Assembly: GCF_035084215.1 (NCBI RefSeq)
Contig: NC_090328.1
Location: forward strand, 6,076,001-6,140,000
DNA length: 64,000 nt
From: Heptranchias perlo
Lineage: Eukaryota
Reading direction: 5' to 3'
Position numbers and translations under genes: made by a program. Below are positions 1 through 27,197 of this stretch, in pieces. Each line of letters starts with the position of its first letter. Position 1 is the first letter of the stretch. The notes under the pieces were generated by a model that did not search any database, was not told the origin of the DNA, and was given only the letters and a program-made list of their open reading frames with translations.

Positions 1-370
1 CTTTTCTTCAACCTCCAGACAGTGAAACCAATCAAAACAAGGAGGATGAATAAAATGGCGGACCCAATGTACAGAGAGATCGTCAACATGTCCCTCTCAG
101 TGGCCCATAAGTGGATCTGACGGACGTCCCTCCCGTGCTCATTTACAGCCACACATCTGTAGTTCCCTCTCAGCGTTGGGTTAAGAATCTCTCCGACAGT
201 TTGATGTTTTTCCAGGAGTTGTGTGACTGTCGTGCTGTTCCCGGGCAGTGCGCTGTTTTCAGGGTCGATCCATGTGATGTTTGCAGGTGGCTCCCCTTCG
301 ACCTTACACACGATGGTGTCTCCGGTTATGTTATCGGTCACGACAGACAGCTCCAGGATGGTGGCTGGGG
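1..370 (-). CDS. Gene A exon 5: C2-set Ig domain plus transmembrane helix in one exon (runs to the window edge)
   Basis: Hand translation after cccaag|CC gives (A)PATILELSVVTDNITGDTIVCKVEGEPPANITWIDPENSALPGNSTTVTQLLEKHQTVGEILNPTLRGNYRCVAVNEHGRDVRQIHLWATERDMLTISLYIGSAILFILLVLIGFTVWRLKK. CxxEGEPP..W..YxCxAxNxxG resembles the Siglec-15 C2 domain. Absent from the ORF track. Confidence 0.9.
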
Positions 371-923
371 CTTGGGGAAGAAAGAGACAGTGAGTTAACT
401 CAATCTAATTAATCTTTATTTGTTGGTCCGTTGCGATGAAATCCGTTACGTAGAGCTGAGAGACACGTGAGCATAGAGGGGTGACGCCCAACAGGAGGAG
501 ATTGGATTGAAATATTCCGTGAGGGAACGGACTGGCTCCTGATCGAAAGGGACGCAGGTTTGATGTTAATGGAGGAGGCGGATGGAAGTTGACCTGAGTG
601 AGTCTGTGGATCTTAACAATGCAGCGACTTCGAAACTGAACAGCCTCCTAAACCTCCGCTATGGCGGCAGGAAACGCACGCTCATTACGAGGCAGAAGTG
701 CGCCGCCATACAGATTGGAAAAGGCAACAAAAATCACGGTGCAGTGACCCACAGAGGGAAATAGCCTGAGTGAGTCTGAGGAGCCCAGGTTCATCAATTG
801 GAATTACAGTGTTTCAGGCCTATCTCAAGTTCTCAGCTCCTCACTGGGAGTGAATTTGCTCTTATGTTTGTTCAACATCTTTTTATCGTTTTCCCAACAT
901 CACTGACGTATATGTTTCCTTAC

Positions 924-1283
924 CGACAACCTGTAGCCTCATCTCATCCTGAGTCACGTTTTCCCCATCTCCATTCTTGACGTGTACGTGACAGAAATAC
1001 TTGCTGGTGTCGTTCAGCCCCAGGTCCCTCATCCTTATGGAGGCGTCTCCTTGGGTTGGGTCTCCGATCAGCTGATATCGCTCTCCTTTATTTACAGTAA
1101 CTGAGTCAGAACCATCCCTGAGGGAACGAGTTTGACTAAAAACAACCGACTCTTTCCATGGATTCTCCTTCATCCAGAGGACAGTGATGTTGCTCGGATA
1201 CTGGTCAGGGGGACTGAAGGTGCAGGGCAGTGCGGCAGAATCTCCCTTGTTCACAGTCACTCGCCAGATATTGTTCCTATCAG
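924..1283 (-). CDS. Gene A exon 4: V2 copy a (near-identical duplicate of 2753-3112)
   Basis: Same splice sites and length as 2753-3112, offset 1829 bp. I count 3 substitutions (R/Q, A/T, one silent). Confidence 0.87.
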
Positions 1284-1799
1284 CTGAGATAGAGAAGGGT
1301 TTCAAAGAATGTATATTATTCAGTCTCACAGTGTATTAAACACAGTTTATACGACATGTATGAAGACCAAAGCCATTGTCTTCGGCCCCCACCGCAAACT
1401 CCATTCACCCCGGCCACCAACACCAACCCCCTCCCTGGCCACGGTCTGAGTCTGAACCAGACCGTTCGTAACCTTGGCGTCCTATTTGACCCTGAGATCA
1501 GCTTACGACCACATGTCCACTCCATCACCAAGACCGCCTACTTCCCCCTCCGTAACATCGCCCGTCTCCGCCCCTGCCTCAGCTCATCTGCTGCTGAAAC
1601 CCACATCCACGTCTTTGCTGTGACACCGTACCAGTAATAATATTGTAAACAGGGACACTTCCAGGTTCCTGTGGATCTATCAAGATACAAAAACATAAGG
1701 TAGTATGGAATAAGAATTCTTTTTAATGGAGAAACATAGGTGAAAGGACCATAGTACAGGACCCCATCAAGGCCAAAAACTACAGCAGAAAATTGGGTA

Positions 1800-2240
1800 A
1801 ATTATAGAATCATAGAAAGGTTACAGCACGGAAGGAGGCCATTCGCCCATTGAGTGCGCAATGCAAGAGCAGTCCAGCCAGTCCCACTCCCCCTCCCTAT
1901 CCCTGTAGCACTGCAATTTTTTTCCTTTCAAGTACTTATCCAGTTCCCTTTTGAAGTCCATGATTGAATCTGCCTCCACCACCCCCTCAGGCAGTGCATT
2001 CCAGATCCTGACCACTCGCTGTGTAAAAAAGATTTTCCTCAAATCATCTTTGGTTCTTTGCCAATCACCTTAAATCTATGTCCTCTGGTTCTTGACTCTT
2101 CCACCAATGGGAACAGTTTCTCTCTATCTACTCTGTCTAGACCCTTCATGGTTTTAAATCCCTTGATCAAATCTCCTCTCAATCTTCTCTGTTCCAAGGA
2201 GAACAACCCCAGCTTCTCCACTCTATCCATGTAACTGAAG
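1800..2240 (-). mobile_element. CR1 3' fragment in the spacer between the duplicated segments
   Basis: LFSLEQRRLRGDLI..FFTQRVVRIWNALP. Confidence 0.9.
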
Positions 2241-2752
2241 GAGTTTATTTGTTGGTCCGTTGCGATGAAATCCGTTACGTAGAGCTGAGAGACACGTGAG
2301 CATAGAGGGGTGACGCCCAACAGGAGGAGATTGGATTGAAATATTCCGTGAGGGAACGGACTGGCTCCTGATCGAAAGGGACGCAGGTTTGACGTTAATG
2401 GAGGAGGCGGATGGAAGTTGACCTGAGTGAGTCTGTGGATCTTAACAATGCAGCGACTTCGAAACTGAACAGCCTCCTAAACCTCCGCTATGGCGGCAGG
2501 AAACGCACGCTCATTACGAGGCAGAAGTGCGCCGCCATACAGATTGGAAAAGGCAACAAAAATCACGGTGCAGTGACCCACAGAGGGAAATAGCCTGAGT
2601 GAGTCTGCGGAGCCCAGGTTCATCAATTGGAATTACAGTGTTTCAGGCCTATCTCAAGTTCTCAGCTCCTCACTGGGAGTGAATTTGCTCTTATGTTTGT
2701 TCAACATCTTTTTATCGTTTTCCCAACATCACTGACGTATATGTTTCCTTAC

Positions 2753-3112
2753 CGACAACCTGTAGCCTCATCTCATCCTGAGTCACGTTTTCCCCATCTC
2801 CATTCTTGACGTGTACGTGACAGAAATACTTGCTGGTGTCGTTCAGCCCCAGGTCCCTCATCCTTATGGAGGCGTCTCCTTGGGTTGGGTCTCCGATCAG
2901 CTGATATCGCTCTCCTTTATTTACAGTAACTGAGTCAGAACCATCCCTGAGGGAACGAGTTTGACTAAAAACAACCGACTCTTTCCATGGATTCTCCTTC
3001 ATCCAGAGGACAGTGATGTTACTCGGATACTGGTCAGGGGGACTGAAGGTGCAGGGCAGTGTGGCAGAATCTCCCTTGTTCACAGTCACTTGCCAGATAT
3101 TGTTCCTATCAG
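2753..3112 (-). CDS. Gene A exon 3: second V-set domain (V2 copy b, His replaces Arg)
   Basis: ctcag|CT acceptor, G|GTAAGG donor, 360 bp, phase 1-1. LPCTF..W..DASI..DTSKYFCHV..LQVV. Confidence 0.87.
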
Positions 3113-3364
3113 CTGAGATAGAGAAGGGTTTCAAAGAATGTATATTATTCAGTAGCGCAGTGTATTAAACACAGTTTATACGACATGTATGAAGACCAAA
3201 GCCATTGTCTTCGGCCCCCACCGCAAACTCCGTTCACCCCGGCCACCAACACCAACCCCCTCCCTGGCCACGGTCTGAGTCTGAACCAGACCGTTCACAA
3301 CCTTGGCTTCCTATTTGACCCTGAGATGAGCTTCCGACCCCATATCTGCTCCATCACCAAAACT

Positions 3365-5480
3365 TGAGCTCAGGTGGGGACAGGCTGCATAAACTTGGCT
3401 GCATTGCCTTGGGTCGAGGAGATTGAGGAGTAACCTGATCAAGGTGTTTAAAATATTAAAGGGATTCGATAGGGTCGGTATGTCTGAGGTACTGAGTGAA
3501 CACTTTGCATCGGTCTTCACTCGAGAAGAGGATGCTGCCATTGTAGCAGTAAAGGGGGAGGTAGTAGTGATATTGGATAGGATAAAAATAGACAAAGAGG
3601 AGGTACTTAAAGGGTTGGCAGTACTCAAAGTAGAAAAGTCGCCCGGTCCAGATGGGATACATCCTCGGTTACTGAGGGAGGAAAGGGTGGAAATTGCGGA
3701 GGCTCTGGCCACAATCTTCCAATCCTCCTTAGATATGGAGACAGTGCCAGAGGACTGGAGGATTGTAAATTTACGCCTCTGTTCAAAAAAGGGGAGAGGG
3801 ATAACCCCGGCAATTACAGGCCAGTCAGCATAACGTCGGTGGTGGGGAAACTTTTAGAGACAATAATGCAGGACACAATTATTCGGCACTTGGAAAAGCA
3901 TGGGCTAATAAATAAAAGTCAGCACTGATTTGTTAAAGGAAAATCATGTTTGACTAAGTTGATTGAATTCTGTGATGAAGTAACAGAGAGGGTTGATGAG
4001 GGTAGTGTGGTTGATGTTATGTATTTGGACTCTCAAAAGGCATTTGATAAAGTACCACATAATAGACTTGCTAACAAAATTAAAGCCCATGGGATTAAAG
4101 GGACAGTGGCAGTGTGGATACAAAATTGGCTAAGGGACGGAACGCAGAGAGTAGTGGTGGACGGTTATTTTTCAGACTGGAGGATGTTCCCCAGGGGTCA
4201 GTATTAGGACCATTGCTCTTTTTGATATATATTAATGACCTGGACTTGGGTATAAAGGGCATAATTTCAAAGTTTGCAGATGACACGAAACTCGGAAATG
4301 GAGTAAACAATGTGGCAGATAGTAACAGACTTCAGGAGGACATGGACAGATTGGTGAAATGGGCAGACACATGGCAGATGAAATTTAATGTAGAGAAGTC
4401 TGAAGTGATACATTTTGGTAGGAAGAATGAGGAGAGGCAATATAAACTAAAGGGTACAATTTTAAAGGGGGTGCAGGAACAGAGAGACCTGGGGGTGTAG
4501 GTACACAAATCTTTGAAGGTGGCAGGACAAGTTGAGAAGGCTGTTAAAAAAGCAAATGGCATTCTGGGCTTTATTAATAGAGGCATTGAGTACAAAAGCA
4601 AGGAAGTTATGCTAAACTTTTATAAAACACTGGTTAGACCTCAACTGGAATATTGGGCCCAATTCTAGACACCACACTTTCGGAAAGGCCTTAGAGTGGG
4701 AGCAGAAGAGATTTACTAGAATGGTTCCAGGGATGAGGGACTTCAGTTACTTGGAGAGACTGCAGAAGCTGGGGTTGTTCTCCGTAGAACAGAGAAGGTT
4801 AAGGGGAGATTTGATAGAGGTGTTCAAAATCATGAACGGTTTTGATAGAGTAAATAAAGAGAAACTGTTTCCAGTGGCAGAAGGGTCAGTAACCAGAGGA
4901 ACAGATTTAAGGTGATCGGCAAAAGAGCCAGAGGCAACAAGAGGAAACATTTTTTTCACTCAACGAGTTATGATCTGGAATGCACTGCCTGAAAGGGCAA
5001 TGGAAGCAGATTCCAGAATAATTTTCAAAAGTGAATTGGATAAATACTTGAAGGGAAAACAAAGACAGGGCTATGGGGAAAGAGCAGGGGAATAGCAGGG
5101 GATAGCTTTTTCAAAGAGCCAGTACAGGCACGATGGGCTGAATGGCCTCCTCCTGTGCTGTACCTACTATGATACAATGATTCTATGAAATAGAGAAACG
5201 ATTTCCTCTGGTTGTGGAATCCAGAAGAAGGGGGAGTAATCTTAAAATGAGAGCCAGGACGTTCAGGAATGAAATCAGGAAGCACTTTTTCACACAAAGG
5301 TTGGTGGAAATTTGGAATTCTCTCCCCGAAAAGGCTGAGGATCAATTGGAGCTTTCAAGGCTGAGATAGGTCGATTTTTTATTGGGTCAGGTTATTAAGG
5401 GATGTGGAGCGATGGGTAAATGGAGCTGAGGTCCAGATCAGCAATGATCTGATTGAATGGCGGAGCAGGAACGAGACTCC
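3365..5480 (+). mobile_element. Degraded CR1 ORF2 (RT) plus further 3' fragments
   Basis: [28 protein letters not shown] and KFADD motifs with frameshifts. Confidence 0.92.
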
Positions 5481-6392: not shown

Positions 6393-6785
6393 CCGTTATC
6401 TTGAGAACTCCGTGAATGAGTTGAAATTTTCCTTTCTCTTTTTCCTTGAAATCCACACGACAATTGTATCTCTCTTCTGTGTCCACTTTCCTCAGTGATT
6501 GGATCATTATGGAAGCATCGTTCTCCCTCGGGTTCCCCATCAGTCTGTAGCGCTCGCCTACATTCTGGTGGATCAGATTCTCAGACCCACTGCTCTGCCG
6601 CTTTCGTGATGGATAATTTGTGTAACTAAAAACCACTTCTGCCATATTTCTCCTCCATGTGACGGTGATGTTGCCTTTATATCCAGGGTAAGGGTGAGTG
6701 AACTTGCAGAACAGAACAGTAGACTTCCGTTCCCTCCCCGTCACCCTATCTGGGGTCTCCATGGACCAACCATTCTTGTTCAAAC
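6393..6785 (-). CDS. Gene A exon 2: Siglec-15-like V-set Ig domain (V1, Arg retained)
   Basis: cacag|GT acceptor, G|GTAAGG donor, 393 bp, phase 1-1. GWSM..VLFCKFTHPY..W..RYRLMGNPRENDASI..YNCRVDF matches the Siglec-15 V pattern (WSM, CxFTHP, GNPRxND, YFCRVEF). Confidence 0.9.
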
Positions 6786-8527: not shown

Positions 8528-8576
8528 GTTCTGCCGAGAGGGACATTGCGAGCGCACAAAACAAAATGCACAGCAT
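8528..8576 (-). CDS. Gene A exon 1: signal peptide (MLCILFCALAMSLSAE + 1 nt)
   Basis: ATG at 8576 is the first in-frame ATG after an upstream TAG. 16 codons of hydrophobic leader, then a phase-1 donor C|GTACGT that joins in frame to the V exon at 6785. Not in the ORF track (too short). Confidence 0.85.
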
Positions 8577-25761: not shown

Positions 25762-27197
25762 TCATAGAGTCATAGAGTCATACAGTTATACGGCACGGAT
25801 AGAGGCCCTTCGGCCCATCGTGTCCACGCCGGCCATCAAGCCCTGTCTACTCTAATCCCATATTCCAGCATTTGGTCCGTAGCCTTGTATGCTATGGCAT
25901 TTCAAGTGCTCATCCAAATGCTTCTTGAATGTTGTGAGGGTTCCTGCCTCCACAACCCTTTCAGGCAGTGAGTTCCAGACTCCAACCACCCTCTGGGTGA
26001 AAAAGTTCTTTCTCAAATCCCCTCTAAACCTCCCGCCTTTCACCTTGAATCTATGTCCCCTTGTTATAGAACCCTCAACGAAGGGAAAAAGCTCCTTAGT
26101 ATCCATCCTATCTGTGCCCCTCATAATTTTGTACACCTCAATCATGTCCCCCCTCAGCCTCCTCTGCTCCAAGGAAAACAAACCCAATCTTCCCAGTCTC
26201 TCTTCATAGCTGAAGCGCTCCAGCCCTGGTAACATCCTGGTGAATCTCCTCTGCACCCTCTCCAAAGCGATCACATCCTTCCTGTAGTGTGGCGACCAGA
26301 ACTGCACACAGTACTCCAGCTGTGGCCTAACCAGTGTTTTATACAGCTCCATCATAACCTCCTTGCTCTTATATTCTATGCCTCGGCTAATAAAGGCAAG
26401 TATCCCATATGCCTTCTTTACCACCTTATCTACCTGTTCCGCCGCCTTCAGGGATCTGTGAACTTGCACACCAAGATCCCTCTGACCCTCTGTCTTGCCT
26501 AGGGTCCTCCCATTCATTGTGTATTCCCTTGCCTTGTTAGTCCCTCCAAAGTGCATCACCTCGCACTTTTCCGGGTTAAATTCCATTTGCCACTGTTCCG
26601 CCCATCTGACCAACCCATCTATATCGTCCTGCAGACTGAGGCTATCCTCCTCGCTATTTACCACCCTACCAATTTTTGTATCATCAGCGAACTTACTGAT
26701 CATACCTTTTACATTCATATCCAAGTCATTAATGTAGACCACAAACAGCAAGGGACCCAGCACCGATCCCTGTGGTACCCCACTGGCCACAGGCTTCCAG
26801 TCACAAAAACAACCTTCGACCATCACCCTCTGCCTTCTGCCACTAAGCCAGTTTTGTATCCAAAGTGCCAAGGCACCCTGGATTCCATGGGCTCGTACCT
26901 TCTTGACCAGTCTCCTGTGGGGGACTTTATCGAAGGCCTTACTGAAATCCATGTATACCACATCCACTGCGTTACCCTCATCCACACGCCTAGTCACCCC
27001 CTCAAAAAATTCAATCAAATTAGTCAGACATGATCTTCCCTTGACAAAGCCATGTTGACTATCCCTGATTAATCCTTGCTTCTCCAAGTGGAGACTAATT
27101 TTGTCCTTCAGAATTTTTTCCAATAATTTTCCTACCACTGATGTTAGGCTCACTGGCCTGTAGTTCCCCGGTTTTTCCCTACTCCCCTTCTTGAATA
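25762..27197 (-). mobile_element. Young 5'-truncated CR1 LINE with an uninterrupted 450-aa RT/C-terminal frame
   Basis: ORF 25852-27216 has intact RT motifs. 8-bp microsatellite tail. Confidence 0.95.

What the first reader, a model, noticed from the sequence alone, without database searches (positions are those of the whole stretch)
415..3360. Very recent tandem duplication of the V2 exon lengthens the gene A ectodomain
Seen: two 360-bp exons differing by 3 nt (2 nonsynonymous), both with intact phase-1 splice sites. The new intron 1284-2752 has a complete donor and acceptor. Inference: domain-number evolution caught in progress, either as a three-V receptor or as alternatively used exons, and possibly a copy-number polymorphism.
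Basis: partly seen in the sequence, partly recalled or inferred. Interest (0 to 1): 0.7.

Follow-up and report, generated by a model that had tools for sequence, protein, structure and literature searches.

The report
Shark Siglec-like receptor gains extra domain
A shark immune-receptor gene related to Siglec-15 carries two nearly identical copies of one domain-coding exon, and spliced RNA contigs join that exon to itself, so this predicted inhibitory receptor likely gains an extra domain that would hold its putative sugar-binding tip further from the cell.

Summary
Observation confirmed. Exons 924-1283 and 2753-3112 (minus strand) differ at 3 bases (2 amino acids) and keep phase-1 splice sites. 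Contigs of two RNA-like runs from one sample join the exon's end to its start. DNA contigs hold letters private to each copy and to the spacer. An assembly artefact is unlikely.

It is not a plain head-to-tail repeat. Only 415-~1460 is near-identical (9 differences in 1,053 bases). The right edge lies inside a LINE fragment whose two copies share no private letters beyond 1467. The spacer is a 6-7% diverged piece of the gene's own tail region. 'Very recent' is unproven: a repeat-mediated crossover and an older duplication homogenised by gene conversion both fit.

Gene A is the ITIM/ITSM-bearing member of a Siglec-15-like receptor pair. Its lysine-transmembrane partner, 79 kb away, shares the exons but is broken in V1. 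The doubled V2 has His in place of the sialic-acid arginine, so it likely acts as a spacer. V-exon repeats recur in a neighbouring gene and in chimaera and skate gene models. Real and tidy, but a known kind of event, and the three-V form is already in NCBI's models.

The parts
8528..8576 (-). Coding part of the leader exon of gene A
   Evidence: Peptides of NCBI model P0007 map here; ATG and GT donor read
6393..6785 (-). V1 exon; keeps the Arg that aligns with R143 of Siglec-15
   Evidence: an RNA-like contig starts at 6785
2244..3363 (.). Copy 2 of the duplicated segment (gene-upstream copy)
   Evidence: a DNA contig at 3334-3474 has no other letters
2753..3112 (-). V2a exon, 360 nt, phase 1-1; Gln7, Thr17; His at the sialic-acid Arg position
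3191..3363 (+). LINE fragment (L2-like, label recalled) upstream of V2a, cut off at 3363
1284..2752 (-). New intron between the two V2 exons, 1,469 nt, GT-AG
   Evidence: spliced joint
2241..2243 (.). Three filler bases at the junction between the spacer's CR1-like fragment and copy 2
   Evidence: Alignment to L020:1-275
1615..2240 (-). Spacer copied from the gene's own tail region (C4:6065577-6066210): CR1-like fragment 1800-2240 plus a tail exon
   Evidence: 91% over the length; the CR1 part has 4 shared and 25 differing columns of 384
1615..1676 (-). Truncated copy of the 72-nt cytoplasmic-tail exon; acceptor intact, donor lost
1362..1617 (+). LINE fragment (L2-like, label recalled); like copy 2 up to 1451-1467 and unlike it beyond; inferred crossover or end of a conversion tract
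924..1283 (-). V2b exon, 360 nt, phase 1-1; Arg7, Ala17; His at the sialic-acid Arg position
415..1534 (.). Copy 1 of the duplicated segment; near-identical part 415-~1460
2..370 (-). Exon for the membrane-proximal Ig (C2-like) domain plus an uncharged transmembrane helix
   Evidence: an RNA-like contig covers exactly 2-370

Best explanation
Gene A, a Siglec-15-like shark receptor with a predicted inhibitory tail, holds two near-identical V2 exons that RNA contigs show joined end to start, so it likely makes a V1-V2-V2-C2 protein in which the extra arginine-less domain would act as a spacer, and the copy likely arose by unequal crossover between two LINE fragments. Shown: the two exons, their splice sites, the exon-to-exon joint, the tail-derived spacer and the abrupt loss of shared letters inside the LINE fragment. 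Inferred: (1) a crossover at 1452-1467 between the fragment upstream of V2 and a second one lying next to an old misplaced tail-exon piece, probably on another allele; (2) both exons are normally included, and skipping one keeps the frame (360 nt, phase 1-1); (3) V1, the only domain with the essential Arg, binds ligand and is moved out by one Ig domain (about 4 nm, recalled); (4) the ITIM/ITSM tail recruits SHP-type phosphatases (family knowledge). My odds: real and co-spliced 0.85; crossover rather than old duplication plus conversion 0.55; spacer role 0.5.
For: RNA-like contigs in X5 and X6 are 390 nt: the whole exon plus its last 29 nt joined to its first base (table 8). Other contigs stop at exon edges 2-370 and 6785, so they are spliced. 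DNA contigs carry copy-1 letters (564, 1325-1328), a copy-2 letter (779/2608), the copy-2 right flank (3334-3474, 0 differences) and spacer-specific letters at 1665 and 1681. The X4 depth ratio is 2.1 against 1.92 expected for a duplication. Against 29 family members, the two LINE fragments share 12 non-majority letters in 105 columns of 1340-1467 and 0 in 67 columns of 1468-1534, where they differ at 10. The likelihood ratio for two elements over one is 3-102, depending on assumed ages. Gene D in the same cluster has a V2 duplication with a hybrid repeat and both parent repeats in place. NCBI models P0002 and P0007 include both exons. His stands at the R143 position in V2 and Arg in V1; R143A abolishes binding in Siglec-15 (PMC10264397, passages). 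ITIM ILYSSV and ITSM TLYSTV are in the modelled tail.
Against: All four runs laid are contigs of one sample, possibly the assembly's own, and 'RNA' is the tool's guess. A back-spliced circle of one exon gives the same joint. The X1 depth ratio is 1.37, nearer the two-alleles model (1.23) than the duplication model (1.86). No listed contig bridges 2243/2244, and 80 rows were not shown. No V1-to-V2 joint appears among the 7 and 5 contigs laid for X5 and X6. The second parent LINE fragment is absent from the present tail region (no hit in L018-L020), so the crossover needs an allele not seen here. NCBI also has a one-V2 model (P0003). No binding or signalling data.
Confidence: 0.55

Rival explanations
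1. Same three-V product, older history: a segment from V2 to the second tail exon (about 12 kb) was duplicated in tandem, an internal deletion removed C2-TM and tail exon 1 from the first copy, and recent gene conversion made 415-~1460 near-identical again.
For: The spacer holds exactly the pieces, in the order and orientation, that such a duplication plus deletion would leave. One junction has 3 shared bases (1615-1617) and the other 3 filler bases. The spacer is 6.5% diverged from its source. Conversion is evident here: A and A' share exons at 90-98.6% with unrelated introns, and copy 2 equals A' at 5 of the 6 in-tract sites where the copies differ. No unseen allele is needed.
Against: One LINE insertion split at that age should leave about 1-3 shared private letters and 4-7 differences in 1468-1534; 0 and 10 are seen. 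Only 2% of 406 pairs of family members differ at 10 or more sites there.
Confidence: 0.3
2. The duplication is real but the exons are mostly used one at a time, and the V2-V2 joint is minor or comes from an exon circle.
For: NCBI model P0003 skips V2a. Either exon alone keeps the frame. Contigs give no isoform ratios.
Against: The joint is part of the main V2 contig in both RNA-like runs. The intron is 1,469 nt with normal GT-AG ends, so nothing obvious forbids joining. The exons differ by only 2 residues, so alternative use would add little.
Confidence: 0.1
3. False duplication: two haplotypes joined in tandem by the assembler at the LINE fragment.
For: The copy-to-copy difference (0.85%) is of the same order as read-versus-assembly differences near V1 (3 letters in about 910 bases in X1). 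The X1 depth ratio is 1.37. No bridging contig is listed at 2243/2244.
Against: The V2-to-V2 exon joint is in both RNA-like runs. The X4 depth ratio is 2.1. There is no N gap near the site. X6 shows further V2 letters found in none of the three assembled copies, which points to a separate second haplotype.
Confidence: 0.05

Closest known systems
Siglec-15 (human, PDB 7zoz; PMC10264397, passages read)
   Same: Best solved-structure match for both V1 (E 7.6e-16) and V2 (E 1e-11). V1 keeps the F-strand Arg. There is one membrane-proximal C2-like domain. The partner gene A' has a transmembrane Lys.
   Different: Three V domains instead of one; V2 has His for Arg; the C95-C104 cysteine pair is absent from V1 and V2; gene A has an uncharged helix and an ITIM/ITSM tail; it lies in a multigene cluster on C4, whereas the urea-transporter genes recalled as SIGLEC15 neighbours are on C1.
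Primate paired receptors Siglec-11/Siglec-16 (PMC5701461, abstract and Background read) and Siglec-5/-14 (PMC4042635, search listing only)
   Same: Linked inhibitory and activating genes with ectodomain exons homogenised by conversion. The activating member is broken in its first V exon here, and human SIGLEC16P has a 4-bp deletion in exon 2.
   Different: Siglec-15-like rather than CD33-related. The genes converge 76 kb apart rather than lying head to head 9 kb apart. The tracts cover exons and short flanks only, and the V1 tract stops before the Arg-bearing strand. No doubled V exon is described in the parts I read.
Tandem exon duplication by repeat-mediated unequal crossover (general; recalled; PMC8373072 seen in search listing only)
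   Same: Symmetric-phase exon doubled with its splice sites; edge inside a dispersed repeat.
   Different: RNA shows the copies joined in series, not only substituted for one another. The spacer is foreign to both flanks, and only one parent repeat is in place.
[quoted passage not shown]
   Same: Both V2 exons are already in automatic models.
   Different: The models say nothing on origin, pairing or the Arg state. P0004 starts inside V1 without a leader.

Membership tests
Siglec family | N-terminal V-set domain with the essential F-strand Arg | tested here: met
   V1 Arg aligns with the Arg of 7zoz
Siglec family | One V-set domain followed only by C2-set domains (PMC5701461 Background) | tested here: not met
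   Three V-set exons and one C2-like exon
Siglec family | Sialic-acid binding | not testable with these tools
   Needs a glycan array with an Arg-to-Ala control
Siglec family | Cytoplasmic ITIM/ITSM or charged transmembrane residue | tested here: met
   ILYSSV and TLYSTV in model P0007; tail exons mapped to C4:6047570-6074310
Siglec-15 orthologue | Transmembrane positive charge for DAP10/DAP12 | tested here: not met
   Uncharged helix in gene A; Lys present in A'
Siglec-15 orthologue | Extra C95-C104 disulfide in the V domain | tested here: not met
   No cysteines at those places in V1 or V2
Siglec-15 orthologue | Shared gene neighbourhood | tested here: inconclusive
   All 12 urea-transporter matches are on C1 and the cluster is on C4; the human neighbourhood is recalled and only one marker was tried
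Paired activating/inhibitory receptors | Near-identical ectodomains with opposite transmembrane/tail types | tested here: met
   A vs A': V2 96-97%, C2 98.6%, part of V1 90%; identity ends before the helix
Paired activating/inhibitory receptors | Ectodomains group by species, not by signalling type | tested here: met
   V2 tree: A+A' 100/99, Callorhinchus pair 100/100, Heterodontus pair 93/96; C2 tree: Heterodontus 99/97, Callorhinchus 100/100, A+A' unresolved. No topology test was run.
Paired activating/inhibitory receptors | Both partners intact | tested here: not met
   A' V1 has an in-frame TAG and a net 4-base insertion relative to A in this assembly
Paired activating/inhibitory receptors | Co-expression and opposite signalling | not testable with these tools
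   Only contigs of one sample were available
Repeat-mediated unequal crossover (NAHR) | Hybrid repeat at the junction | tested here: met
   12 shared private letters left of 1467, 0 right of it; a conversion tract ending there would look similar
Repeat-mediated unequal crossover (NAHR) | Both parent repeats present at the ends of the unit | tested here: not met
   No family hit in L018-L020; met for gene D
Mutually exclusive tandem exons | The two exons are not spliced to each other | tested here: not met
   V2-to-V2 joint in 2 of 2 RNA-like runs; a circle is not excluded

The most novel reading that the evidence does not exclude
Cartilaginous fishes keep an ancient Siglec-15-like receptor pair in which the inhibitory member repeatedly lengthens its ectodomain by doubling V exons (V2 twice here, V1 three times in a chimaera, V2 two to three times in a skate) while the lysine-transmembrane member stays short and usually lacks the sialic-acid Arg. 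Receptor length would be a selected, possibly polymorphic dial that sets the reach of the inhibitory signal relative to its activating twin.
Probability: 0.2. Interest if true: 0.7.

Novelty: new member of a known kind. Interest (0 to 1): 0.4.

Why it matters
It is a well-resolved case of an immune receptor gaining a domain, with both junctions readable and the spliced product visible. It gives a simple length test: the same ligand-binding tip on one or two spacer domains. It also warns that near-identical exon copies in conversion-prone clusters cannot be dated from their identity. The wider pattern, Siglec-15-like activating/inhibitory pairs homogenised within species in sharks and a chimaera, would push paired-Siglec logic back to early jawed vertebrates. 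Seven paper searches listed no paper on this shark family, but the library lacks most subscription journals, and earlier notes of this scan already describe the pairing.

Tried and rejected
No RNA holder was on record in the run index; X5 and X6 are guessed RNA.

Junction 2243/2244: no bridging contig was listed. It abuts a very high-copy repeat, so I treat this as uninformative rather than as proof either way.

A tail-only protein search for inhibitory orthologues (P0007 480-656) returned only this gene, 2 of 1,456 candidates; relatives were found by the representative search instead.

Rfam: nothing at E 0.1 in 300-3600.

A self-BLAST count of internal repeats returned nothing even for P0002. 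I dropped it as a method failure and redid it by direct offset comparison.

The idea that the 1362-1617 repeat is a bounded SINE was rejected: family members run on at both ends.

My early reading that the whole 1,120 bases were one 7%-old duplicate was weakened by the shared-letter test and is kept as the main rival.

No C2 or transmembrane exon was found for gene B (window 58091-63197) or gene D in the stretches read; this was not pursued.

No structure or complex prediction was run. No supplements were read.

Full report
1. The observation. The window's best non-tandem self-match is 415-1534 against 2244-3363: 1,120 bases, 19 mismatches, no gaps. Each copy holds a 360-nt minus-strand exon (924-1283, 2753-3112) with an AG acceptor and a GTAAGG donor. 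The exons differ at three bases, one synonymous and two changing residues 7 (Arg/Gln) and 17 (Ala/Thr). Both are V-set domains.

2. The gene. The window lies at G000:C4:6076001-6140000. Gene A runs on the minus strand: leader 8576-8528, V1 6785-6393, V2a, V2b, and one exon for a C2-like domain with an uncharged helix at 370-2. Seven tail exons lie left of the window down to about C4:6047570. The tail of NCBI model P0007 has one ITIM and one ITSM by motif scan. V1 and V2 both match human Siglec-15 best among solved structures. V1 keeps the Arg that aligns with R143 and V2 has His. R143 forms the salt bridge to sialic acid, and R143A abolishes binding (PMC10264397, passages). NCBI has models with both V2 exons (P0002, P0007) and one with V2b only (P0003).

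3. Is it real and spliced? I laid 4 of the 24 listed runs; all are Logan contigs of one sample. In both RNA-like runs the V2 contig is 390 nt: the whole exon plus its last 29 nt joined to its first base. Other contigs stop at exon edges (2-370, 6785), so these runs contain spliced RNA. The joint is what V2a-to-V2b splicing gives, and 22 nt into the exon it carries the V2b letter. A circle of one exon would give the same joint. DNA contigs collapse the copies into one mosaic. They show copy-1 letters (564, 1325-1328), a copy-2 letter outside the tract shared with the paralogue (779), the copy-2 right flank without differences, and spacer-specific letters. Depth is split: X4 gives 2.1 times single copy (duplication predicts 1.92, two alleles 1.26), X1 gives 1.37 (1.86 and 1.23). 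No listed contig bridges 2243/2244. I put an assembly artefact at about 5%.

4. Anatomy. The repeat is X-spacer-X, not head to tail. The spacer 1615-2240 matches C4:6065577-6066210 at 91%, the gene's own second tail exon with the CR1-like fragment upstream of it. The exon piece keeps its acceptor and has lost its donor. Three filler bases lie at 2241-2243 and three shared bases at 1615-1617. In the CR1 part the spacer and its source share 4 private letters and differ at 25 of 384 columns. The mismatches between the copies are 9 in 415-1467 and 10 in 1468-1534. The change falls inside a LINE fragment with 1,747 candidates in the genome. Against 29 family members the copies share 12 non-majority letters in 105 columns up to 1467 and none in the 67 columns beyond. 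The labels L2-like and CR1-like are recalled from the translated motifs and come from no library call.

5. Origin and age. Two histories fit. (a) Unequal crossover at 1452-1467 between the fragment upstream of V2 and a second fragment beside an old misplaced tail piece. The shared-letter pattern favours two elements by 3 to 102 fold, but the second parent is not in the present tail region, so an unseen allele or a later deletion is needed. (b) An older duplication from V2 to tail exon 2, an internal deletion, and recent conversion. This explains the order of the spacer pieces without an unseen allele. I weigh them about 0.55 to 0.3. Identity does not date the event. At 7e-10 per generation (PMC10587355, abstract; a different shark) 9 in 1,053 would be about 6 million generations. 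Yet the differences may be allelic (3 other letters in about 910 bases near V1 in X1) or imported by conversion (copy 2 equals the paralogue at 5 of 6 sites).

6. The pair. A third V2 copy lies 79 kb away on the opposite strand. It belongs to gene A', whose exons match A at 90% (part of V1), 96-97% (V2) and 98.6% (C2) while the introns do not align beyond short flanks. Identity stops just before the helix, which in A' carries a Lys and a short tail. V1 of A' has an in-frame stop and a net 4-base insertion. Lys-helix relatives with one V2 were found in five other sharks and rays and a chimaera. In the V2 tree, A and A' group together (100/99), as do the Lys and uncharged forms of Callorhinchus (100/100) and, less firmly, Heterodontus (93/96). 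The C2 tree supports the last two and leaves A with A' unresolved (hits under 40-44% identity or 60 residues were left out; no topology test). Five of 6 Lys-helix proteins with a readable V1 F strand have Leu for the Arg (P0004, P0005, P0006, P0009, P0016); the chimaera P0015 keeps it. This parallels SIGLEC11/SIGLEC16P (PMC5701461, abstract and Background).

7. Recurrence. Gene D at C4:5.697-5.702 Mb also has two V2 exons differing at 3 bases, all non-synonymous, with intact splice sites. About 1.1 kb around the exon is 99% alike. The repeat between the copies matches one flank on its left and the other on its right, with both parents in place. No transmembrane exon was found for D, and its NCBI model joins exons 730 kb apart, so its status is unclear. 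Five of 20 A-type proteins have an internal repeat of at least 70% over 90 residues: this gene, two isoforms of one chimaera ITIM-type gene (V1 repeated), a skate model (V2 twice) and a manta model that looks like two fused genes. None of the 7 Lys-helix proteins has one, and 6 of 64 D-type proteins do. These are automatic models, some of them fused.

8. How it likely works. Including both exons gives leader-V1-V2-V2-C2-helix-tail, 120 residues longer. V1 is the only Arg-bearing domain, so the added V2 would raise it by one Ig domain and add three N-glycosylation sequons. The tail would recruit SHP-type phosphatases (family knowledge). Skipping one exon restores the short form in frame. Binding, signalling and any benefit of length are untested, and the gain may be neutral.

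9. Verdict. The feature is real and probably expressed. It is a new, well-documented instance of exon duplication in a fast-evolving paired-receptor cluster. It works like an inhibitory paired Siglec but fails several tests for Siglec-15 orthology. 'Very recent' and 'polymorphic' remain open. Other papers seen: PMC7226832 and PMC13358205 (passages; neither contains 'shark' or 'cartilaginous'). Interest 0.4.

Noticed in passing
L012:9071-9470 and L013:1610-4043 (C4:5995071-6000043, + strand): Gene A', the lysine-transmembrane partner of gene A, has a stop and a frameshift in V1, while its counterparts in other sharks are modelled as intact. The V1 conversion tract stops just before the strand that carries Arg in A and Leu in A'.
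   Followed up: partly
L028/L029 (C4:5697283-5700397): Second V2 tandem duplication, in gene D: 3 base differences, all non-synonymous; unit about 2.76 kb with a hybrid repeat (Penelope-like, label recalled) and a 33-nt tandem array.
   Followed up: partly
L018:4297-4368, L019:9567-9638, L020:8239-8310: Gene A's tail contains three copies of one 72-nt exon; two carry a Tyr motif and one has His in its place. NCBI isoforms differ in their use.
   Followed up: partly
window 1611-1676 (minus): The truncated tail exon in the new intron keeps its acceptor, and a weak GT at 1610-1609 would give an in-frame 66-nt insert between the V2 domains. It is not seen in the RNA contigs.
   Followed up: partly
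window 1325-1328: Three copy-1-only changes cluster 42-45 nt upstream of the V2b acceptor, next to a branch-point-like motif (consensus recalled); they could bias exon inclusion.
   Followed up: no
window 1195 and 1211 (3024, 3040): The X6 RNA-like contig has two V2 letters found in none of the three assembled copies, one changing Pro24; probably the second haplotype.
   Followed up: partly
window 58091-58450 and 62826-63197 (minus): Gene B: a V1 exon with the essential Arg and a V2 exon with His; no C2 or transmembrane exon was found downstream in the window.
   Followed up: partly
L016:8445-8790 and L017:734-1120 (C4:6034445-6037120, + strand): Gene C between A' and A: a single V with Arg, then a C2 and uncharged helix; the most Siglec-15-like layout in the cluster.
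   Followed up: no
C4:4966500-4973322, 5697280-5702526, 5803217-5817713: Three D-type genes (V1-V2, no C2 found) share exons at 97-98%. NCBI model P0168 joins exons of two of them across 730 kb and is probably chimeric.
   Followed up: partly
window 25769-26218 and 63551-64000: 450 bases at 99.1% identity, running to the window's end; a young repeat copy or part of a larger duplication.
   Followed up: no
window 42781-44127 and 59415-62296; L021: Long minisatellite arrays in and beside gene B.
   Followed up: no
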